Shown: in pieces, positions 2,228 through 60,096 of the stretch
Layout: every line of letters starts with the position of its first letter
Numbering within the stretch: the stretch's first letter is position 1
Assembly: GCA_009103225.1 (NCBI GenBank)
Contig: RHPI01002262.1
Location: 62,001 to 126,000 of the forward strand
Direction: 5' to 3'
DNA: 64,000 bases
Origin: Chlorokybus atmophyticus
Lineage: Eukaryota > Plantae > Mesostigma and Chlorokybus algae
Notes under the pieces: generated by a model
The model's database searches: none
What the model saw: the letters and a program-made list of their open reading frames with translations, nothing else
What the model was told of the DNA's origin: nothing
Translations under genes and position numbers: made by a program

Positions 2228-4262
2228 ATGGCGGCAGATGCTGATGAAGGTGTGTTGTTTGTCATTTGGATTGTGGTCGTTGATGTTCCATGTGTACCAG
2301 ACAGAGACGGATATTTGTTGATGCTGATGCGTGGAGGCAGCTGTCGAGTCCATTTCTGAATCATACGAATGTTCTAGCGGTTATCTGTTGATTGCACGCT
2401 CAGACGCAGCAGTACCAACACTTACGGCACTGCCCTTGCGTTGTTTGCGTAAGACAGCCATGTCAATAACGACACGTTGTTCTGCGCTAATCAGGAGAGC
2501 CCTGTTGTCACCAGCGCACTCCTGGTGAAGGCATCATCTGAGTAATGTTGGTGACTGAGCATGACTGTCGACGACTAAGTGACCAAATGCTCGCACAACA
2601 CCGTGTTGCTCGTGTGTCGATCATCAACAGTCAACAGCACTGCCCAGTCACCATAATCAACAACATGATGTGTCAACATATACAAGCCTGAAACTGGTTG
2701 TCGCTGCACATATGCGCACAAGGCCGTACGCTCGCATACGCATGCACACACACTGGTCGTTATGATGCTGAAGCTGCATCTTCGCAGGCTCCTCCCAGAC
2801 ATCCACATCATCCACATCTTCACCCTCGCCACCACAAGCACCATCATCCTCCCGCGGGGCCGGCGCGCGCAAGAGCGTGGGGACGTTCCTGGCGGGCTCC
2901 ACCGCGGGCGTCGTGTCCGCATGCCTACTGCAGGTAGGACATTGTTGTGTGATGATGTTTGCGTGTACGTGCGGGTCGACCGCCGTCATACTCACAGGCT
3001 TGTGTAGCATTTTGTAACACTGTTGACATTCGTGCAGCCGTTTGATGTGGTGAAGACAAGGCTGCAGGCCCACGCTGCCCCGGGCCTACCTGGCAGGTAC
3101 GCATGTGTACGTGTGCGTGTGCCTGCAACACCCGCTTCTGGTGGTTGTTTGCATGAAGCTGAACACACCAATGACAGCTTCTCTATGCCACAGCGTGGAT
3201 CGTGGCGTGGGAGGGACGTTTCGCTTGATGCGCGCCATCGCCACAAAGGAGGTACTTACCTGTGCGCGTGCGCATGCGTTTGCGCGTGTGTCATTTCCAT
3301 GGCCAACAGGACAATATCATAAACAGGGGATAGGTGGGTTGTGGAAGGGTACAGCGCCGTCTGTGATACGCGTGGCCCTCGGCGCGGGCCTTTACTTTGT
3401 CTCACTGGACTATGCCCTCGCCCTCGCACGCACCCTCCACGCCCACGCACAGAGACGAACAACAACCCAACAACAAACTCAACTACAACAAGCCCAACAA
3501 CAACAACCCAACAACAAGCTCCCTGGCGCACTCACGATGGTGGCGGGCGCCTCCGCTCGCTCCTTTGCCGCCGCCGCGTTGTGTCCCGTCACCGTGGTCA
3601 AAACCCGCATGGAGTATGTTGGGTTGTCGTCCCCGACACGCGCACCACTCAACAACATGTCCACATGGCAAGCCCTGCGCTCCATCGCAGCCAATGAGGG
3701 GGTTCGTAAAGGCTTGTACGCGGGACTTGGGCCCACATTAGCACGTGACGCACCCTACTCGGCACTTAACCTCATCTTCTATCAACAACTCCAACACTAC
3801 CTCTCCACGAGAGTGACACAACAACAACAACATCTTCGAGGACTTGTGAACTTTGCGTCGGGGGCGGCTTCGGGTGCGTTGGCCACGTTGCTGACTCACC
3901 CACCGGACGTGGTGAGGACGAGACTGCAGTTGGGGCAAAGAGGGGGGGGAGCACACACCAACATGAGCATCACGTGGAGGGGGATTGTAGCAAAAGAAGG
4001 CGTGAGGGGTTTGTTTGCGGGCGTGGCCCCGCGCGTGATGAAGCGCGCGCTGCAAATGGCGCTCACGTGGGCCATGTTTGAGGAGCTTAATAGAGTCTTT
4101 AGTGGGGCTGAAAGAGGCTTTCTACAGTCGGTTGGGGACACGGATACGCGCACGCTTGCCACCCAACAACAACAACAACAGCAGCAGCAGCAGCATGTTG
4201 AGTCTGCTGTCACATCACAGGCTGTTTCAACGCCTGCTGCTGCTGCTGTAGAGCATAGGTAG
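2228..4262 (+). CDS. SLC25A38: Mitochondrial carrier, SLC25A38/Hem25-like (glycine transporter); exons 2228-2249, 2788-2933, 3038-3096, 3194-3251, 3327-4262
   Basis: Three carrier motifs PFDVVKTR, PVTVVKTR, PPDVVRTR; GLWKGT, GLYAGLGPTLARDAPYS and GLFAGVAPR are typical of the SLC25A38 subfamily; GT-AG introns keep the frame. Confidence 0.85.
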
Positions 4263-6001: not shown

Positions 6002-8462
6002 TCAAATGAATGCGTGGTGTTCCGAGAACAGTGATGGCGACTGCATCGGGCTGTAAGAGAGTCCGCTCCCTCCCGTCGCGTACGATACAACATGTTGTTG
6101 TTGTGGTGGGTGTTGCTGTGGATGTTGTTGCTGCATGTCCTCCCACGGCCTCCGCGCCCGCGCATCCGAGAACAGCGACGGCGAAGGCAGCGGGAACAAG
6201 TCCGAAGACTGCAACCACCACGCTGCAGACGAAGGCGTGGTAGCCACCTCATACTGTTGCTGTTGTTGCTGTTGTTGTTGTTGTTGGAACATATGCTGCT
6301 GCTGCTGCTGGTGCTGCTGCAGCTGGTGTTGCTGTTGCAGCAAGACTTGCTGCTGTTGGTGTTGTTGCTGCTGTTGGTGTTGCTGCTGCAGTGAGAGGCG
6401 CGCCAGCTCCTCTCCCAACGCCGCATCCGACATCCTCCTTGCTGATGACAATGTTGTTGTTGATGATCCTGATGATGTTGATGAAGCCAACATCATCTGG
6501 CGCATGACAGCTGCATCCATGGCCCCAACACTAAGTCTACGTGGGCCCACCACAGCCGCGCCCACCCCACGCGGGTGAAGGTCAGGCCTTGGCGGGAGGG
6601 CCGAGTGAGGTGTTGTGAGTAAGGACGGGTGCGAGTGGACGGCGTGTAGACCCGGGCTCGGGCTCGGGTTGGGTGGAGCGGCGAGTCCACGTAGTTGGGC
6701 CAACTGAGCCTGGTCGATGGACCCGCCAGGCGTGAGAGGCGCAAAGGGAAGCGCAGGCATATCGTCTAAAGACAGCGGCGCGGGCCTCTTCTTTGTCCAC
6801 TTCTCCGAGTTCACGCCGAGGTTGTTGTTGGAGTGGACACTGTGGATATGATGTGTCGGGGACGAGAAGGACGAGGGGAGAGAACGTTGGCTCTGAAGGC
6901 TGCCGGACGACGGCGACATAGGCGGGCGTCGCGAAGAGGGCGTGTGCGGGGTCACGGCCGGTGTGGGCGTGGTGGTCATGTTGTTGTTGTTGTCCGACAC
7001 ATACGAAGAGAATGTTGGTGACACAGGTGGTGAGAGCATAGAGGGTGAGCCCGCGCCGTCATCACTGAGGTCAAAGGGCAACATGCCAGGCGGGAGAGGG
7101 CGCAGCTGCTCAGTGCAGTGAGCAAAGAAGCACACGCGCCGTCGGCACCCGCGCCCGTCCTTGCACGGCTGCGTGCGGTAGCGTGACGGGTGCATCCAAC
7201 ACTCGAACACACCGTGAGCGAACTCGCACGCGTCCCCGCGCCGACACGCACCCTTGCGGAAGTCCGGACACGCCACACCACTGTAGTTGTACTTGCGCGG
7301 GTCACGACGCCTCGCCTTCTCACCCGGATGAGCAAATGGACACTCTGTCCAGTCGTGAGAGCGTGGACGTGTACACCTCCTCACCTGCGCATACACCCAA
7401 CATGTGACTATCACCTCAACACGCGACAACACTCAACAACCCAACAAGTACTCTACACGCGATTCAACATCCCACAACATACCTTGAAGTCGTACATCCT
7501 GAACTCGTCTGAGCTGTAGATGTCGTTGTCGTTATCGGTGGCCGTGCCGCTGTATGCACCCGGGCTCGGGAGAGACATGTGCGAGTGCGAGTGCATGTTG
7601 TTAGTGGAGACGTGTGCGTGAGGCTTGTCGTCTCCTCCTTGTACAGAGGAGCGCGAATGTTTCCTGTCTTGCACGAGCTCAAGCAGCTTCATGAGCTTCT
7701 CCTGCTGCGAGGACGCGTGGTTGTGGCTTTTGAATGAGTTGCCGCCGACGCCATTGGTGGAGGAGTTGTCCACGGCACGCATCATCAGGTCCAGCGGCGA
7801 CACGCCGTCAATATCCGCTCGCTTGTAGTCAGCACCCGCCCGCTGAAGCAAACCGATAGCCTGTGATCGACGTGGCCCTGCAAGCCACGCAAGACAACAT
7901 CAGCCCCCCACACACACATACTCTCACAAGCACGCGCACGCAGAGCACGCACCAATAACCAACACCTCATACCTGTGCCAGCGCACGCGCAGTGTAGGGG
8001 AGTCCTCAGGTCATCCGGCGACAAGTAGTTCGCCGACGCTCCATTGGCCAGTAGATACGCCATCACTTCCACCGCCCCAGCGTAGGCCGCGATCATGAGC
8101 GCGCTTCTCCTCGGCCTCGCGACGGGGCACCCCGCTGCCGTGGCCACGTTGGCGCACTCGGCCGCGCAGTCTGCCGCCACGTTCTCGTTCTCTATGGCCC
8201 ACTTGGCGTTGTCGAGCTCGTTCTTCGCGGCCGCAGCTAATAGAGAATAAGCTGTCACTGTGGGGGGTGGCATGACGGCGGCGGGGACAACACCGTCCAC
8301 GGGAGGCGAGGTGCTGCGGATGTTGGGACTCTTGCCTTTGCTCTCCAACCCATCGAAAGTATCACCTAATGACTGCGGCAATATGACATCATACATTTTG
8401 ACAGGCTCCTTCATCTCCTTCAAGTCCTTGGGCGATGCTGCCTCGACCTTAAGCATATCCAT
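6002..8462 (-). CDS. Ankyrin-repeat, arginine-rich tandem CCCH zinc-finger protein (plant RR-TZF); exons 8462-7973, 7860-7483, 7384-6002
   Basis: Ankyrin motifs ([26 protein letters not shown]); [11 protein letters not shown]|[30 protein letters not shown]; two CCCH fingers; poly-Q C-terminus. Confidence 0.92.
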
Positions 8463-9340
8463 CACAACAACGCCCACAAACAGCGTGTTACCCTTGCGCC
8501 ACTGCTAGCTTCCACCTAACAGGCCGACAAGCACTTGATCGGTCCTGATAATCTTTGTGAGGCTTTGCTCGCAAGCATCTGGAGTAAGAGTCAACGCACG
8601 TGTATGAGCACCTACTGTTTAAGAATATAGCAGTACGCAGCATGCTGGCAGTAAGAAATCGCACCTGGCAGACACCCCAGTGGAGTCACTCTGAGGGGAA
8701 TGCTGGAAAGGTGGGTTTCTAGTGTTTCAAGTGGCTGTGTTGTGTGGCAAGGAGGCCTGCAGACGAGAGCGGAACACAACATTGAGCATGTGGTTGAGAC
8801 CAAAGGGCCCCAATGCAGTGCTAGACCAGATCTACGCCAAGGACTGGGACTGCCTTGCCAAGTGAATTGGCTCAGTTCAATTCGCTATGAGCCATCTCTA
8901 GCAAAAAGAAACAGCAAAGCAGACGTAGAACTCTTGTTGAGCCATGCTGCTTCAAGCACACGGGCATAGACCTGCCTGCAGCTATGGCAGAGGCACTCAC
9001 TCCTGCAGCCTAGCCAGTGCAGACAGCAACGTGCTCTCAAGGCAAGATCTTGCTTTCAACACGCACAACCACGATCCTCACCCTGTGACTTCACACACCA
9101 AAGCTCCTCCTTTCCCTACCGCCGCCGCCGCCACCGGCTGCCGCCGCCGCCGGCCTCTCAACCTCTCTTGGCCATGAACACAGCCACTGTGATCTGCACC
9201 CAGTGACTTGATCTCCCCACCCCCTGACCTCAGCCCACCTCCGCCGCCTAGTACCACGCCTTCTACTACTACACCTCACCCCACAACCCACCTCTCCTGC
9301 CTCTCCTCCCCGCCTGCCGCCGCCGCCGCCGCCGCCTGCT

Positions 9341-33460: not shown

Positions 33461-34011
33461 AGCACCCCAAGTGAGCCAGCAGCGACTGCATGCATTCACG
33501 CAGCTACCAACGGGCGTAAGACATCGTTGAAGTTGGTGGTTAGTGGTCAGTTAGTAACTGAGCATACTTAACAACAGCATCTTCGACTTGTCTGCATGAG
33601 GCAGACCAGCTGCTCCCCTCACGGGTTCACATGCAACTCACCTGTACTTACCCGGGATATATCCCTCAGCCGGTACCTCATTACACCACATCCTTGCGCA
33701 CGTTTACCATGCAATTGCAAGTTGCATGTGAAGGTGCAAAGGTCGGACGCGATAGATGTCATCACTTCTCTTATCAACTTGGCGCGTAGCCTGCCAAGTA
33801 ACTGTCTCTTTGTGTGGCCACAGCGTTGTTAAACAGCTTGAAGGGGCGTGGTGCTCGCAGCACTGGCACTGCAACACAGCTTCTCTCAGCTTTTGTCGTA
33901 GACTCCGGTACACACACCCAGTGTAGTAGTCTGAAAGATAAGTTAGTCTAGGAAGGGGACAGCTGTGCCATTGGCCGTACGTAATGAATTAGCATATGCA
34001 GTGGATATACC

Positions 34012-34335
34012 NNNNNNNNNNNNNNNNNNNNNNNNNNNNNNNNNNNNNNNNNNNNNNNNNNNNNNNNNNNNNNNNNNNNNNNNNNNNNNNNNNNNNNNNN
34101 NNNNNNNNNNNNNNNNNNNNNNNNNNNNNNNNNNNNNNNNNNNNNNNNNNNNNNNNNNNNNNNNNNNNNNNNNNNNNNNNNNNNNNNNNNNNNNNNNNNN
34201 NNNNNNNNNNNNNNNNNNNNNNNNNNNNNNNNNNNNNNNNNNNNNNNNNNNNNNNNNNNNNNNNNNNNNNNNNNNNNNNNNNNNNNNNNNNNNNNNNNNN
34301 NNNNNNNNNNNNNNNNNNNNNNNNNNNNNNNNNNN
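34012..34335. other. Assembly gap
   Basis: 324 N. Confidence 0.99.
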
Positions 34336-35301
34336 CCCCCGGGCCAACGCAGTGTCAGATATGTACATCACACTCACAAACTCTGAAAATGCAACTACCA
34401 ACAGATCATCCGCAAAACGGGAGGATGCCACTTGCGAATCTCAAGAAGAGTGGCCTATCCACCAGAGGGTGCAGACTGAGCTCATAAGCAAACAAGTCAT
34501 AGTTAGCCTAGTAAACACCAGCTGCATTACCCATGAGAATGGCAATGCCAATGCCACCTCTCTGGAAGGCCTGTCATGCACAATTGTCTGATGAGTTCAA
34601 CATCCAGCATGAATTTCGCCAGGCTGAATACCATACTACGCCGAGGCTGCCACACCTCTACCTGACCGTTAAGCTTTAGAAAGAGCCCATTAAAGCTGAG
34701 GTTCATTGCTGCGGCCTACAACACATAATTGTCTGATGTTTGTGATTGGCTTACATGTGCATACAAGGCTTGTGCTGATGCTGTCAATGATATTTGGGCT
34801 GAGCTGGTGCAGGATCTGAGGATGCAACATGGTTGGATCTTGAAGGACTCTTTGCGGTTGGAGCGCCTACAGACATACCTCAACACCGCACCAATGATGA
34901 CAAGCTTGAGTTTCTCCAGTTCCAAACCTCTGATTTCACAACAAGTTGTATACTAACTTGTCTCATGGCATTGGTGGCTGAGGCGACGCATTGTCATTGG
35001 CACTCTTTACGAATCAAGGGCCTTGGAGTGGAACACCATACGCAGAGTACTACAGTGCATATTTCCATCCTAGATGTGTCGTGATGTGATGTCACTGTGA
35101 CATCGCATCATCATTGAGAGGCTCCTCAACTGCCCTGCCCTGCATTGGAAGTGACTGCCATCGTCATTGCCGTTGTTTTCAACCTGCTCCACAACCCAGC
35201 GTGGTTCTTGCATTCCCCTCCAAAGCAAGCAAGACACAGCAATCGCGTGTGTGTCTGTGTTCTACCAGAGTGCTTGAGGAGAAGTCTCTCTTTTCTCCAG
35301 C

Positions 35302-38387
<3,086 letters not shown>

Positions 38388-53225: not shown

Positions 53226-53553
53226 TGTAACGGAGTGCTACCGCTATGCGGTTCCCCGCCCTTATTTAATGAGAAATAAGAGTCCCAACGGGATAAACAC
53301 AGCCATTAAAGTCGTATTAGGGCCTTTATAGGGCCTAATAAGGTGTTATGTTATTTAACACTGACTTCGACTTGAGACATAAGTCTCAAGTCGATATCGG
53401 CCGCATGGCGGCGCTGCTAACGCAGCGACCACCATAACCAGGGGATCTTTTGATCCCCTAGCTGCCAGCGGCGGCGGCGGCGGCGACGTGGCTGTGGTTG
53501 GTGGTGTTGGGGTAGGGGATTAAAGGGGGCGGTAGCACCTCCCCCTCTTTACA
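53226..53553 (+). repeat. 5' LTR (328 bp)
   Basis: Direct repeat of 59770-60096; TG...CA termini. Confidence 0.97.
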
Positions 53554-53555
53554 TT

Positions 53556-53567
53556 TGGTCTCGGAGC
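53556..53567 (+). other. Primer-binding site, iMet-like (TGGTCTCGGAGC)
   Basis: Lies 2 nt after the 5' LTR; 10/12 match to the plant iMet PBS TGGTATCAGAGC. Confidence 0.65.
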
Positions 53568-54437
53568 GAGGGCGTGGGGGCCGTGGGCGGGCGGCGACGA
53601 CGTCGGCGGGGCGCAGAAGCGGCAGTCGGCACTGCTCAGTGCCGACATTAGGCCGGCGGCCTGACAGCGGCGGCAGCGGCGGCAACTACCCACTAGGGTG
53701 GGTAGTGGTAGTTGTTAGCTAGTTGTTGTTGTTGTATAATTGTATAATTGTAATATTGCTGCTGTTGGTGTAGCCTAGCCTAGCCTTGCCTTGCCTTGCT
53801 TGCTTAGCCTAGCCTAGCTTGCCTGGCCTAGCCTAGCTTGTTAGTGTGAAGGGGAGGCGGCCACACAGGCAGCCTCACCTCAAGCATTGTATCTCAGCAC
53901 ATCACTTGTAACTAAATCACATTATACCATGTGATTGTGCTAATGGTTGGGGCTGCCACCACGTGGATTCGTGGTGGTGTAAAGGGGGGTTGTGGTTGTG
54001 TACACTTCTCCCACCCCATGAAAGCAGTCTAACGCCAACTTGGGCTGTTTTGGCCGCCATTCTGTGCGGTAGGGCCGCCAGATTCATTCTGGGCGGCCGA
54101 TATCAAACCCTCGACTCACAACTTGTTGATATCGACATGTAGGGCTGATTCAACGAGAGTTTTGCACCTTTTGTGTCATTTACAATTGTGAGTTGAGCAG
54201 GGTTGTACAAAGTGAAAACTTTGAATTGTTGTAGCTTGTAAACCACCACTTGAATTCGCGTGCGGTTTGTTTACAAGCGAGTGTCTTGTTGCGAGGTGTT
54301 GGGCAGTTATTTTACGGGCTGTTTAACCCAAGTATAGCACCTTGAAATCAATGATAGAGAAACAACAAATTTTGACACTTTCAGAGTGCACAACTCGTGT
54401 GCTTGCAAACTGCTTGACGGCTTGTCTTCTTAGGTAG

Positions 54438-55872
54438 ATGTCTCACCAAGGAGAGGAAGGAGGGATGTATCCCGTACATGAGGATTTATTCTGTGAGCCA
54501 TCAAGTGATGAGGAAGTGAAGCACTCAGACACGAGTAGTGGTTACAGTGTCAGTGAGGAGGAAGAAGCCAAGTCCAAGAGTGGTGAAGCTTCTTCAAAGA
54601 AGTCCTCTCATGATGACCAACCTATGGACGCTCAGAGCATCATCGGGGCGGCCATCGCGAAGTACGCATCAGAGCGTGAAGCTCTTCTTGCTGCACACCC
54701 CCAGCTTCGCAAGAAAGTGTGGGATGAGTGGGCGCAGCAAGTCCGTAACGCATATGAGACGAACTCTCCCGCGCGCAAGCAAGGAGATGGTGATTCGCAT
54801 GATCGAGCACGAGTTGACGCGTAATGTACCGCAACTTATGCGCACAGATTCGGCAGTGGCCACTCTTATGGCTACTTATGACAAACCAGGCCCGTATCCA
54901 GGCCAGAGGATGGCGTTCGAGGCTCTCACCTTATTGACGGTGGAAACTCAAAATCGTTGCAAGGACCTCTTCTGGTACTTAGGGCCTGAGCTGGAGGAGA
55001 AGTTAGCTCGAGAAGAGCGCTTGATTGCACGCCTCGATGCTATACAGTCCGAGTTGGTGGCATACGCCAGCAGGTGGCAGGGGCTACTATTACTGTAGCA
55101 GGGACATCAGTTGGCCTACCCGTCACAGCGCTGAACAAGCCCGTGAAGTTCAAGCCCAATGGGCTGTAAACATTCAGGATTGGGTGGTGAATGTAAAGCG
55201 CTACTTGGCTGCACTTCAGCGACCAGTTAGTGAGCATACATCTGTTGCCGAGTTGCTCATGCCACCTGACGCTTTGGCCGAGTGGGCGCGTCAAACATAG
55301 GATGGTGCTTCCAAAACTGTGGAGGCATTGTTTCAGTTCTTGGTGGAACGCTATGGTGGCATGGACCCGGCTACTGTTGCTCGCAACAAGCTTACCAAGC
55401 TGCGACAGAATGGTCGGGCGGCTTCAGTGTACTTGCAGGAGTTTCAGGCACTTGTTGGCCGTATCAACAGTGGGCTCATGCCCATGGACAAGGCTGAGCA
55501 GTTTGACTTGTACAACCGCGGCTTGGATGCGCGCTTGCGCGACCAGTTGCATTACAACACGTCGACGGGGCAACCGTGGGTTCCCGCGGACCTCGCAACC
55601 TTGCAAAGGTTGAGTGTGTATCTGCTCAATGACAATGCTGCGGCTGTGTGCAGGACAAGTCACAGGTGGTGGCTTCAGTCAAGCCACATGGGGGAGGGGG
55701 AAAGCGGTTCCCTCCACCAAGTGCGCATGCGGCGAAAAAAGCCAAAACTTCATACGCACCTGCGAATGGTGCTATGCCTATTGCAGCACGCGCCTGCTAC
55801 GTGTGCCATTAGCCAGGTCACATCACGAAGAACTGCCCAACCAAGGGAAAGGGCAAGGCCAAGAAGGTTGAA
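54438..55872 (+). pseudogene. gag: Disrupted gag with CCHC zinc knuckle
   Basis: Frameshifted ORF pieces; ARNKLTKLRQ...ASVYLQEFQAL...YNRGL; knuckle CYVCH*PGHITKNC at 55795-55836. Confidence 0.85.
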
Positions 55873-55884
55873 TAGGATTACGTC

Positions 55885-56280
55885 GTGACTGATGTACCTT
55901 CATCTAGTGGCCAATTGCTAGTGTTACACGCAAACTGGTTTGATGAATTGTCTCGTGTACATGTAATTACACATGCATGGCAAGTACATGATAAGCTGCC
56001 ACTTTTTGATAGTGAAAAAGTGGATGACCAGGCTTGTGTGCTAGTGCATGTAAAATTTAACATGCTAACAGACGTTTTGCGCACATTGTGTGAGTTACCA
56101 AATAAACACACGACACTGAATGTGGTTGTCATGGTGCCGAAGTATCATAGACCGTGGCTAAAGCATACTCGGGGGGGAACTGTGATGAAACAACTCACAA
56201 AGCGTGAGACAAGGACAGTGCGGCTGTCAGCAATGTTGATTAACCCGCGCATCAGTCGCGGAATCTTGGCTACCTTTTAA
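55885..56280 (+). other. Extra domain between Gag and protease, weakly resembling Dam-like N6-adenine methyltransferase
   Basis: 131-aa open frame, in frame with the protease across one TAA; ...VLVHVKFNMLTDVLRTL...VVVMVPKYHRPW. The family call is from motif memory only. Confidence 0.45.
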
Positions 56281-59200
56281 GGGCGAGTAGTACCTTTATT
56301 GTGGACCTTCACAGGCACGGCACAAAGTATTACTAGCTCGTTCTTGGTTGACACCGGGGCAACGCATAATTTCGTCGAAGAAAAATGGGTTATGCGCAAT
56401 AAGATAGCGTGTAAACCCTCAGCATTTTCAGCTGCTGGTGCTGGGGGTACGTTATCGGTAAAAGGTGAAATCAAGCTGAAAGTTAAGATTGGTAGTTATC
56501 AAGCCAATTCAACTTTCATCATAGTACCCATTGACATAGTTGGTGTTGATGTGGTATTTGGCCAAGAATGGCAGAATCAAGTGTCTATGACATTAGACAC
56601 TGCTGCACGGCTGTGCACAGTAAAAAAGGGGCGTAAGCGCATCACTTTATCCGTGCAGGGGTCGCATAGCTTGGAATACAAATAAACAGACCATGCATTA
56701 CTTACGGCGCTTCAAGTAAAGCGTGCGTTACGTAAAAACACACTTGCTTTTCTTATGCACTTAACGTCGAGTAATGATGTATGTGTGCCTAGCAATACAG
56801 ATTGTGTGGCGGACATCATTGAGAAATTTCAGGTTGTGTTCTCAGATGAGTTGCCGGGCTTGCCCCCTGATCGAGGTGTCGGACACACAATACCTTTAAT
56901 TCCTGATTGTGAGCCTTCATTTCGGCCTGTACATAGGTTGAGCCCTCGTGAGAGGGGGAAAATGGAAACATAGATAAAAGAGTTATTGGAAAAGGGGTTG
57001 CTTGAACCAAGTTCTTCACCCTTTGGCGCACCCATATTGTTTGTTATGAAAAAGGAATGGGAAGTTGCGCATGTGTGTGGATTACCGTGCTCCAAACATG
57101 ATCATGGTAAAGAACAGATACCCGTTGCCAAGGATTGATGATGTGTTTGACAAGTTGTCAGGAAATGCGTGCTTTCATACGCTAAACTTGATAAGCGGCT
57201 ATCATCAAGTCCGGATTCAACCTTCGGATGTGTATAAGAGCATTCAAGACACCTACGGACCACTATCAATACAAAGTGTTACCTTTTGAATTGGCTAATG
57301 CACCCGCTGTGTTTCAGAAGGAAATGAATTAAACTTTCGGTGACATGCTTGGTCAACATGTCATGATATACTTGGATGACATCATTGTCCTCAGTAAAAC
57401 AAGGGAAGAACATAGGCAACACTTGGAAGCGGCTTTTGCAAAATTGCGCAAGCATCGCTTGTTGGCAAATCTCACCGAGTGTGATTTTTTGTGAAAGGGA
57501 GTTGCCCTTTCTTGGTCACATTGTGAGTGGTGCGGGTATCAAACCTGACCCTCGCAAAATGCAAATTGTGAAAGAGTGGCCCCAACCTCAGAATATCCAT
57601 CAACTAAGGTCGTTTCTAGGGTTGGCAAACTATTTTCGCAAGTTCATGATGGGGTACTCGACAGTTGTCATGCCTTCGACCAAATTGTTGCGTAAAGATG
57701 CCCCATTCACTTGGACAACAGCACAAAAAGCTGCTATGCAAAACGTGAAGTTGACTTTAACATCGGCGCCGGTGTTAGCACTGCCCAATTAGGACAAACA
57801 CTTCACGGTGGTCAGTGACGCATCAACACTTGGGAGTGGTGCGGTACTATTGCAAGATGGTAGACCTTGTGCTTATGAGAGTGTAGGAAGTTCATTCCTG
57901 CAGAAGTGAACTACACTACGACAGAGCAAGAACTATTGGGTATAGTTCATGCTCTTGAGACATGGCGATGTTACTTGGAGGGTGTTCAGTTCACTGTTGT
58001 GACTGATCACAACCCGTTGGTGTATTTCTAAACACAGCAAAACTTGAGACGGCAAGCGCGCTGGAATGAGTTTTTGTCCAGGTTCACCTTCAATTGGGTG
58101 TATCGACCGGGCAGAACCAATGTGGCTGACCTTTTGAGTCGCTGCCCGTCATTACTGGTAGTGATATGCGCGCAATTACTTGCGACTCGCAGCACATTGT
58201 CTCCCGATGATGAGTTTGTGCAAACTGTTATATAGGGGTACACTTTGGACCCGTGGTTTTTTAATGCAGACAACTTACAAAAGTTTGACGAACGTGACAA
58301 TCTGTATTACATGAGCAACAGTTTGGCGATCCCTAATCGTGCTGAACTGCGTGTAAAATGCATAGCGAATGTACACGATCCACCTTACGCTGGGCACTTT
58401 GGTAGTCGCAAGACCAGTAAGGCAGCGCAACGGTTGTATTGGTGGCCATCGTTGCCTGCTGATGTGAAGCGGTATGTGGACACGTGTGACAAATGTCAAC
58501 GTGACAAACCGTTACGTCAAAAGCCCGCTGGGATACTGCGGCCGTTACCAGTTCCTGACAATAAGTGGGACAGTGTGAGTAGGGACCTTATCACTGAGCT
58601 ACCTGAGACAACGTTGGGTCATACTGCGGTTGCCGTGTTTGTGGATCGTTTGACCAAAATGGTTCACATTGTTTCCTTGCCGTACGGAGATAGGCTCCCG
58701 TGATCTAGCGATGGTTTTTGTCGCGTCAGTGTTCAAGTTGCATGGCTTGCCTCGCAGCATTGTCTCTGACCGTGACCCGAGGTTTGTGGCTCAGTTTTGG
58801 AAGTCGCTATGCAACTTCCTGCAGCTACAGCAGCATATGAGTACCGCTTATCATCCGCAGACTGATGGTTAGACTAAACGCGCCAGTTAAGTGATTGAGG
58901 AAACCATTCGGCATTATGTGAGTCCGAATCAGTCTGATTGGGATATTTATCTTCCAAGCTGAGTTCGCGATTAACAATGCATGGCAAGAGAGTTTGCAGG
59001 AAACTCCGTTCTTCTTGACTTACGGAGTGCATCCACAAAGTCCTGCGAGTGTTAAGTTGCCAGGTAACGACTTGACTCGCGTGCCTGCAGCGCGCGAGAT
59101 GGCTGCGGCCATGCAAGACAGGTTAGCATTGGCAACGAGCTGTCTGCGCGCAGCGCAAGACAGACAGAAAGCCCAAGCTGATAAGCATCGTAGGCAGGCC

Positions 59201-59644
59201 GACTTTGATGTGGGCAATTTTGTGCTTATGAGCACTAAAAACATATCCATCAGGGGAGTGGGTATCCGAAAACTTTTCCCTCGTTAAATAGGCCCCTTTA
59301 AAGTAGTTGATCGGGTCGGCACTCACGCGTATCGTTTTGAGTTACCACATTCCATACGTATACATAATGTGTTTCATGTGAGTGCACTGAAACCATACCG
59401 TTCAGACGGTCGGGTTCTACCTCCTCCACCCCCAATCGTAGTGGATGGCGATGATACTTTCGAGTATGAGGTGGAAACAATCCTGAGTCACCGTAAGCCC
59501 CAACGCGGACGCGCCCCGACTTACTTGGTGAAATGGAAAGGGTATAGTGTTGAACACAACACATGGGAACCCAAAGAGAATCTTACCACTTGCCAGGAGA
59601 TTCTTCGGGCGTACTGGAGTGATGTGTCCGCACGCGGACGGTAA
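56281..59644 (+). pseudogene. pol: Disrupted pol: protease, RT, RNase H, integrase, chromodomain
   Basis: FLVDTGATHNFV; SSSPFGAPILFV; RMCVDYR..N..MVKNRYPLPRIDD; YLDD (about 57368); FLGHIVS; VVSDAS; GHFG...CDKCQ; DRDPRF; TAYHPQTDG; chromodomain [10 protein letters not shown]...[15 protein letters not shown]. Many stops and frameshifts. Confidence 0.95.
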
Positions 59645-59756
59645 AAGGGTGCTGGCAGACATTTTTACCGCTTCGGCCCTGGTTCTTTTCTCACTTAGGT
59701 TTTCAGTGCTCACGGTGGGGCCTTGCTAACCCTTCAATGAGGACATTGAAACCTAA

Positions 59757-59769
59757 GTGGGGGGGGGAA
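59757..59769 (+). other. Polypurine tract
   Basis: GTGGGGGGGGGAA directly before the 3' LTR. Confidence 0.9.
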
Positions 59770-60096
59770 TGTAACGGAGTGCTACCGCTATGCGGTTCCC
59801 CGCCCTTATTAAATGAAAAATAAGGGTCCCAACGGGATAAACACAGCCATTAAAGTCGTATTAGGGCCTTTATAGGGCCTAATAAGGTGTTATGTTATTT
59901 AACACTGATATCGACTTGAGACATCAGTCTCAAGTCGATATCGGCCGCATGGCGGCGCTGCTAACGCAGCGACCACCATAACCAGGGGATCTTTTGATCC
60001 CCTAGCTGCCAGCGGCGGCGGCGGCGGCGACGTGGCTGTGGTTGGTGGTGTTGGGGTAGGGGATTTAAGGGGGCGGTACACCTCCCCCTCTTTACA
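59770..60096 (+). repeat. 3' LTR (327 bp)
   Basis: Direct repeat of 53226-53553. Confidence 0.97.

What the first reader, a model, noticed from the sequence alone, without database searches (positions are those of the whole stretch)
55885..56280. Chromovirus carries an extra Gag-protease domain resembling a decayed Dam-like adenine methyltransferase
Seen: a 131-aa open stretch sits between the Gag zinc knuckle and the protease, in the pol frame, where Ty3/gypsy elements normally have only a short linker. Established: DIRS tyrosine-recombinase retroelements carry a Dam-like N6A-MTase region with an NPPF/Y-type motif, then a helix, then a hydrophobic strand with P-x-W/Y and PW. Inference: VLVHVKFNMLTDVLRTL...TLNVVVMVPKYHRPW follows that pattern, with HVKF where NPPF would be. 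This would be a captured, probably catalytically dead MTase fold retained in an LTR element, possibly a nucleic-acid-binding or anti-silencing module. I cannot tell whether it has been described for this lineage.
Basis: partly seen in the sequence, partly recalled or inferred. Interest (0 to 1): 0.8.

Follow-up and report, generated by a model that had tools for sequence, protein, structure and literature searches.

The report
Dead Dam-like domain in algal retrotransposon
A broken copy of a Gypsy-type jumping gene in a green alga carries, between its coat protein and its protease, an extra domain that likely descends from a Dam-type adenine methyltransferase but lacks the catalytic motif, as do all 20 relatives aligned, so this family likely keeps the domain for a non-enzymatic job; elements with the intact motif are already described.

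Summary
Observation confirmed: a 134-codon open stretch (55876-56277) lies between the Gag stop and the protease of a decayed 6.9-kb chromovirus, in the pol frame. It has no direct Dam hit (Pfam, phmmer, direct hhalign). Homology is reached in two steps. Related chromoviruses from metagenomes carry a domain at the same place. The four least degenerate match bacterial Dam (prob. 85%, E 6e-6) and match the window domain (E 2.7e-4; 0 of 120 shuffles and 0 of 86 natural decoys score as high), placing HVKF on the NPP position. An alignment-guided model weakly favours a methyltransferase fold (Z up to 5.8). 0 of 20 aligned relatives keep NPP, yet 9 have open Pol frames over 1,300 aa, and the domain shows dN/dS 0.14-0.31 in 7 pairs. 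So it is likely a retained pseudo-enzyme, not mere decay. DAM-carrying chlorophyte chromoviruses are described in a 2026 preprint, and this scan met the Gag-Dam-protease layout four times on other DNA. What is added here is an NPP-less branch that a Pfam screen misses, and a conserved in-frame UAG between gag and pol. Function is untested.

The parts
53226..53553 (+). 5' LTR (TG...CA)
   Evidence: 320/327 identical to the 3' LTR; flanking 5-mers differ at one base
54438..55875 (+). gag, frameshifted in this copy; ends with a CCHC zinc knuckle (55795-55836, one internal stop) and a basic tail
   Evidence: (Retrotrans_gag E 0.0019, below cut-off); sister contigs differ by indels at the frameshift places
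55873..55875 (+). gag stop TAG followed by G, in frame with pol; likely read-through site (inferred)
   Evidence: no variant at >=20% share; TAG-G in 9 of 12 relatives with an in-frame gag
55876..56277 (+). 134-aa Dam-derived domain without the catalytic motif
56047..56058 (+). HVKF, at the position of the catalytic NPP[FY] motif
   Evidence: hhalign register against HPPQ of L086 and LPPV of L151
56137..56157 (+). PKYHRPW, the strand-end P..W motif shared with relatives
56278..56280 (+). stop specific to this copy
   Evidence: sense codon in all laid contigs of both runs
56281..56682 (+). aspartyl protease (DTG motif)
56980..59287 (+). reverse transcriptase, RNase H and integrase, broken by stops and frameshifts (limits approximate)
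   Evidence: three-frame translation
59465..59620 (+). chromodomain at the end of pol
   Evidence: PF00385 E 2.9e-19
59770..60096 (+). 3' LTR, preceded by a polypurine tract

Best explanation
The stretch is the first domain of Pol in a green-algal chromovirus, likely descended from a Dam-type adenine methyltransferase, lacking the NPP motif and so predicted to be inactive, and likely kept by selection as a non-enzymatic nucleic-acid-binding module. Shown: its position, its openness in sister copies, the lack of NPP here and in 20 relatives, and purifying selection in relatives. Supported indirectly: Dam ancestry, through a two-step profile match. Inferred: it is made at low level when ribosomes read through the gag UAG, so it enters the particle on Gag-Pol; it keeps the C-terminal half of the methyltransferase sheet, and it binds the element's RNA or cDNA, or a host partner, without transferring a methyl group. 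This particular copy is dead.
For: Same-position domain in related chromoviruses. The window's RNase H-integrase falls in a 28-row group with the domain-bearing rows (SH-aLRT 83, quick tree). Four least degenerate relatives (A2) versus 24 bacterial PF05869 proteins: prob. 85%, E 6.2e-6, score 39.3, column shuffles at most 16.3 of 60. A2 versus window domain: prob. 41%, E 2.7e-4, score 28.9; 0 of 120 shuffles and 0 of 86 natural decoys reach it. Model with 21 sequences: pLDDT 61, strand-helix-strand-helix-strand-strand over residues 54-122; the best VIA-align rows are KsgA/Erm/DIMT1-type N6-adenine methyltransferases, Z 5.8, rmsd 4.3, 116 aligned. ESM Atlas links L086's domain to a eukaryotic cluster with PF05869 on 11% of members, score 0.92. 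NPP absent at the motif column in 20 of 20 relatives; 9 of the 19 loci printed there have the domain and an open Pol of 1,334-1,504 aa. dN/dS 0.14-0.31 in 7 of 7 pairs, against 0.09-0.42 for the protease in the 5 pairs where it could be computed. Iyer et al. (PMC4738411, passage) already judged DIRS1 methyltransferase domains inactive and proposed transcript binding or PCIF1 mimicry.
Against: No direct evidence from the window sequence alone: no Dam hit in Pfam, PHROGs or NCBIfam, 0 hits among 1.84 billion representatives, direct hhalign to Dam 12.8, within the shuffle range. An HMM of 11 relatives missed it at E 10, and the 13-sequence profile gave only score 19.9 with 1 of 100 shuffles higher. 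A2 was picked by eye as the least degenerate set. Fold scores are below the Z 8 that the tool calls meaningful, Foldseek ranks acetyltransferases first with E above 0.007, and the model was guided by an alignment that assumes the homology. Synonymous sites are near saturation in 6 of 7 pairs, and dN/dS was not measured in the window's own family. L025, in the same clade, lacks the domain and has an open Pol, so it is dispensable there. Nucleic-acid binding and read-through were not tested.
Confidence: 0.55

Rival explanations
1. The domain is Dam-derived and inactive but is kept as a structural spacer that sets the folding, dimerisation or timing of the adjoining protease in Gag-Pol, with no nucleic-acid binding.
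For: It always abuts the protease; its sequence drifts far (10-18% identity to the window) while length and strand pattern stay; constraint is similar to that of the protease.
Against: L025 and L024 run a protease without it, so a short linker can serve.
Confidence: 0.2
2. The window's domain is not related to Dam; it is an unrelated alpha/beta domain (for instance acetyltransferase-like) that sits at the same place.
For: All direct searches fail; Foldseek lists GNAT acetyltransferases first; 8 of 50 VIA-align rows are GNATs.
Against: The profile match to the DAM-like relatives beats all 206 decoys and is collinear over 68 columns with the motif in register; same position in the same clade.
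Confidence: 0.1
3. The domain is a functionless relic that is decaying slowly because it cannot be cut out without breaking the pol frame.
For: A gradient of motif loss across relatives (LPP, HPP, YPE, NAP, AAP, HVK); one relative has lost it (L025); 12 of 20 listed differences between this copy and sister contigs change the residue (a best-supported subset).
Against: dN/dS 0.14 in the one unsaturated pair and 0.22-0.31 in six others; the hydrophobic strand and proline are kept in a diverged sister family (loose-end letters).
Confidence: 0.08
4. The domain is still an active methyltransferase with a non-standard active site, marking the element's cDNA or RNA.
For: The preprint finds more 6mA on DAM-LTR copies in three hosts; some relatives keep a DA[CF] motif and xPP (L151, L086).
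Against: The window lacks both prolines and the Asn, and by eye also the upstream DA[CF] acid; established N6-methyltransferase chemistry needs the [NDS]PP[YFW] motif (own knowledge). Even NPP-bearing domains gave no 6mA in E. coli in the preprint.
Confidence: 0.07

Closest known systems
DAM-LTR retrotransposons, 'Chlorophyta DAM-chromovirus-like' clade (Fernandez-Moreno et al., bioRxiv 10.64898/2026.05.21.726589; whole main text read, figures and supplements not seen)
   Same: Ty3/gypsy element with chromodomain in a green alga, carrying a DAM-derived domain of the short eukaryotic type.
   Different: Their domains were found with a DAM profile search at E 1e-5 and nearly all keep Asn-Pro-Pro; this one and 20 relatives lack it and none of the 17 distinct relatives scanned in Pfam hit Dam. 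The text does not state where the domain sits in that clade, does not discuss motif-less versions, and says DAM-LTRs are absent from Streptophyta.
DIRS1 methyltransferase-like domain (Iyer et al. 2016, PMC4738411; passages read)
   Same: Retroelement-borne N6-adenine methyltransferase fold, judged likely inactive and proposed to bind transcripts or mimic PCIF1.
   Different: DIRS are tyrosine-recombinase elements; here the carrier is an integrase-type chromovirus with the domain before the protease.
Phage and bacterial Dam, Pfam PF05869
   Same: The least degenerate relatives align over the motif strand, helix, following strand and P..W.
   Different: The window domain itself does not match directly and lacks NPPY.
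KsgA/Erm-fold proteins, including TFB2M
   Same: Best structural neighbours of the model. TFB2M and yeast Mtf1 are recalled as precedents for a methyltransferase fold used without catalysis.
   Different: Weak Z (5.8 at best), larger proteins, no sign of close kinship.

Membership tests
Chromovirus (Ty3/gypsy) | LTRs, gag-PR-RT-RH-IN order, chromodomain at the integrase end | tested here: met
Chlorophyta DAM-chromovirus-like clade | DAM-homologous domain inside the element | tested here: met
   Indirect only: two-step profile match
Chlorophyta DAM-chromovirus-like clade | Domain detected by a DAM profile at E 1e-5 (the screen's criterion; PF05869 assumed) | tested here: not met
Chlorophyta DAM-chromovirus-like clade | Asn-Pro-Pro catalytic triplet | tested here: not met
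   HVK here; no NPP in the close sister family; 0 of 20 relatives
Chlorophyta DAM-chromovirus-like clade | Placement within that clade in DAM and RT trees | not testable with these tools
   The preprint's sequences and supplements were not available; one search holds only metagenome relatives
Class I SAM-dependent methyltransferase fold | Rossmann-like sheet with the C-terminal hairpin | tested here: inconclusive
   pLDDT 61; Z up to 5.8 to KsgA/Erm, GNATs interleaved
Active N6-adenine methyltransferase | Methyl transfer from SAM | not testable with these tools
   No assay; motif absent
DIRS elements | Tyrosine recombinase in place of integrase and protease | tested here: not met
   Protease and DDE-type integrase with chromodomain present

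The most novel reading that the evidence does not exclude
A wide branch of algal chromoviruses has turned its captured Dam into a pseudo-enzyme that is invisible to Pfam screens and stays under purifying selection in intact elements. If the host is the streptophyte Chlorokybus, as unchecked earlier notes say, DAM-derived LTR elements do reach Streptophyta, but in dead form. That would mean the conserved job of the domain is binding, not methylation, and that catalysis is dropped where host 6mA no longer pays.
Probability: 0.3. Interest if true: 0.65.

Novelty: new variant of a known kind. Interest (0 to 1): 0.42.

Why it matters
The preprint's model is that retrotransposon DAMs write 6mA to keep new copies active, yet its E. 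coli assay found no activity. A set of intact elements that keep the domain without the catalytic motif gives a natural control: if they show the same 6mA or expression advantage, the effect is not catalytic. It also means profile screens undercount these domains. The window's copy itself is dead and adds no function.

Tried and rejected
No whole genome is held for this window, so no copy survey or codon model within the host was possible. Homologue searches with the domain found nothing: 70 and 1 candidates, none scoring; the knuckle-to-protease read-through, 5,158 candidates, none scoring; 0 among representatives; ESM Atlas no usable hit; 64 pattern matches in metagenomes, none confirmed. 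Viral-contig scans with pol pieces gave nothing useful (one locus). An NPP-based DNA pattern gave 22 loci, by eye chance matches except one PCIF1-like viral protein. Single-sequence model pLDDT 37, fold search uninformative. PDB sequence searches with A1 and A2: nothing significant. L086 against phage records: best E 3. PF05869 not found in the 5 genomes holding relatives; A2 found no Dam gene in 301 bacterial genomes. No stable RNA structure after the gag UAG (z 0.52; z -1.63 across the junction). No RNA holder was listed. The motif of the diverged sister family could not be read, because differences near alignment ends are not listed. The careful tree did not finish. The host could not be named: an RR-TZF-type CCCH gene (PMC4468379 passages) only says green lineage. 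Paper searches; none turned up a description of motif-less DAM domains in LTR elements or of read-through in algal chromoviruses, in an open-access library only.

Full report
What is there. The finding lies in a 6.9-kb LTR retrotransposon, 53226-60096, with LTRs identical at 320 of 327 aligned bases and a 5-bp target duplication carrying one mismatch. Gene order is gag, protease, RT, RNase H, integrase, chromodomain, so it is a chromovirus. The copy is dead, with many stops and frameshifts. After the Gag zinc knuckle comes a TAG (55873-55875), then 134 open codons in the same frame, a stop (56278-56280) and the protease. Host genes in the window point to a green alga (by family only). Earlier unchecked notes on this genome say Chlorokybus; I could not test that.

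Sister copies. No assembly is held, but contigs of two public runs cover the region. All laid contigs read a sense codon at 56278-56280, so that stop is this copy's own damage. The gag TAG shows no variant at 20% share or more, although families that differ just upstream and downstream align across it. The closest family differs at one residue of HVKF and has no NPP. A diverged family aligns over the second half at about 80%; its three readable differences just after the motif are silent, but its motif itself could not be read.

Direct searches fail. The domain has no Dam match in Pfam, PHROGs or NCBIfam, no homologue in the large protein collections and no usable Atlas hit. The single-sequence model is useless.

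Relatives bridge the gap. I fetched elements by a conserved RNase H motif: 121 metagenome loci (80 with long flanks), 8 from genome contigs and 1 viral. A protease profile hit 37 of these 130 loci; 20 others with enough upstream sequence had no protease hit. I picked 20 loci with a domain before the protease by eye or by profile, leaving out near-identical duplicates and frameshifted copies. They form a gradient: L151 keeps WDAC and WLLPP, L086 IDAF and WIHPP, and others go on to YPE, NAP, NAK, AAP and AVP. A profile of the four least degenerate (A2) matches 24 bacterial PF05869 proteins with probability 85%, E 6.2e-6, far above 60 column shuffles. The same profile matches the window domain over 68 columns, E 2.7e-4, with HVKF on the NPP position; 0 of 120 shuffles and 0 of 86 open-frame decoys from the window score as high. 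Broader profiles do worse: score 19.9 with 1 of 100 shuffles higher for 13 sequences, and an 11-sequence HMM misses it. The window against Dam directly is background. In a quick tree of RNase H-integrase (52 rows; the careful search did not finish) the window sits in a 28-row group, SH-aLRT 83, with the domain-bearing rows except L037, and has no close neighbour. A model built on the 21-sequence alignment reaches pLDDT 61. VIA-align ranks KsgA, DIMT1 and Erm-type methyltransferases first (best Z 5.8, rmsd 4.3, 116 aligned); 9 of 50 rows are acetyltransferases or a Nudix protein and most of the rest are methyltransferase folds, some chain identities recalled. Foldseek is not significant and puts acetyltransferases first. 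I put Dam ancestry at about 0.85-0.9.

Dead but kept. NPP is absent at the motif column in 20 of 20 relatives. My bait selects one part of the clade, so this does not say NPP versions are rare overall. Nine of 19 loci printed have the domain and an open Pol of 1,334-1,504 aa, so motif loss is a trait of intact elements. Pairwise dN/dS over the domain is 0.14-0.31 in 7 of 7 pairs, similar to the protease; only one pair is far from synonymous saturation (0.14). L025 lacks the domain and has an open Pol, so it is not essential everywhere.

How it likely works. In 12 relatives gag runs in frame into a stop followed by pol; 9 of these 12 have TAG then G, like the window (judged by an upstream knuckle or long open frame; the sequences are related, so not independent). 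Seven loci show no in-frame gag or end too early to tell, and one was not printed. By analogy with MuLV (PMC2194720, passages) Gag-Pol is likely made by read-through, though no RNA structure stands out and Tca2 shows the analogy can fail. The domain would then travel in the particle as the first part of Pol. Without the Asn and prolines it is predicted not to methylate. The most likely retained job is binding the element's RNA or cDNA or a host factor, the role Iyer et al. proposed for inactive DIRS1 domains (PMC4738411, passage). A structural role beside the protease is the main rival. Neither was tested.

What is known. Fernandez-Moreno et al. (bioRxiv 10.64898/2026.05.21.726589; main text read in full; figures and supplements not seen, and they may show domain positions or motif-less members) describe a Chlorophyta DAM-chromovirus-like clade with a conserved NPP, found by a DAM profile screen, and report DAM-LTRs absent from Streptophyta. 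Four earlier reports of this scan met a Dam-like domain between Gag and protease on other DNA. Morozov et al. (PMC6338049, passages) mention methylase-bearing Gypsy and DIRS elements in green algae and charophytes in general terms. So the layout is known. The element fails the NPP and profile criteria of the described clade and is best called a motif-less variant of it. My paper searches found no account of such a variant or of the UAG junction, within an open-access library.

Verdict. Interest 0.42.

Noticed in passing
window 55873-55896; L025, L038, L049, L062, L067, L079, L086, L099, L151: gag and pol are in one frame, split by TAG followed by G, in the window and 9 of 12 relatives with an in-frame gag; the bases around the stop stay alike between diverged sister families. 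Likely programmed read-through; no paper found on it for algal chromoviruses.
   Followed up: partly
L146-L153 (genome contigs): Eight contigs in bacterial and archaeal MAGs match the retrotransposon RNase H motif, and at least four (L147, L150, L151, L153) hold eukaryote-type Gypsy pol genes; likely contamination of the bins.
   Followed up: partly
L025:2123-2344: A chromovirus of the same clade with TAG-G junction and open Pol but only about 65 residues between the stop and the protease: the domain is missing.
   Followed up: partly
L027, L075, L076, L081, L085, L098: A separate Gypsy clade also has an in-frame stop shortly before the protease, after a serine/acid-rich Gag tail, and no extra domain.
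   Followed up: no
window 53367-53394 (and the matching place in the 3' LTR): Each LTR holds a near-perfect 28-base palindrome, seen as inverted repeat I2.
   Followed up: no
L009 around 4001-4120 (minus strand): A large viral contig encodes a protein with NPPF that looks by eye like a PCIF1-type methyltransferase.
   Followed up: no
window 6002-8504 (minus strand): Ankyrin-repeat exon upstream of a plant-type tandem CCCH zinc-finger exon; likely one ANK-RR-TZF gene.
   Followed up: partly
window about 36660-37200 and 34010-34340: A very long (TC)n run ending at an N, and a run of Ns: assembly gaps.
   Followed up: no
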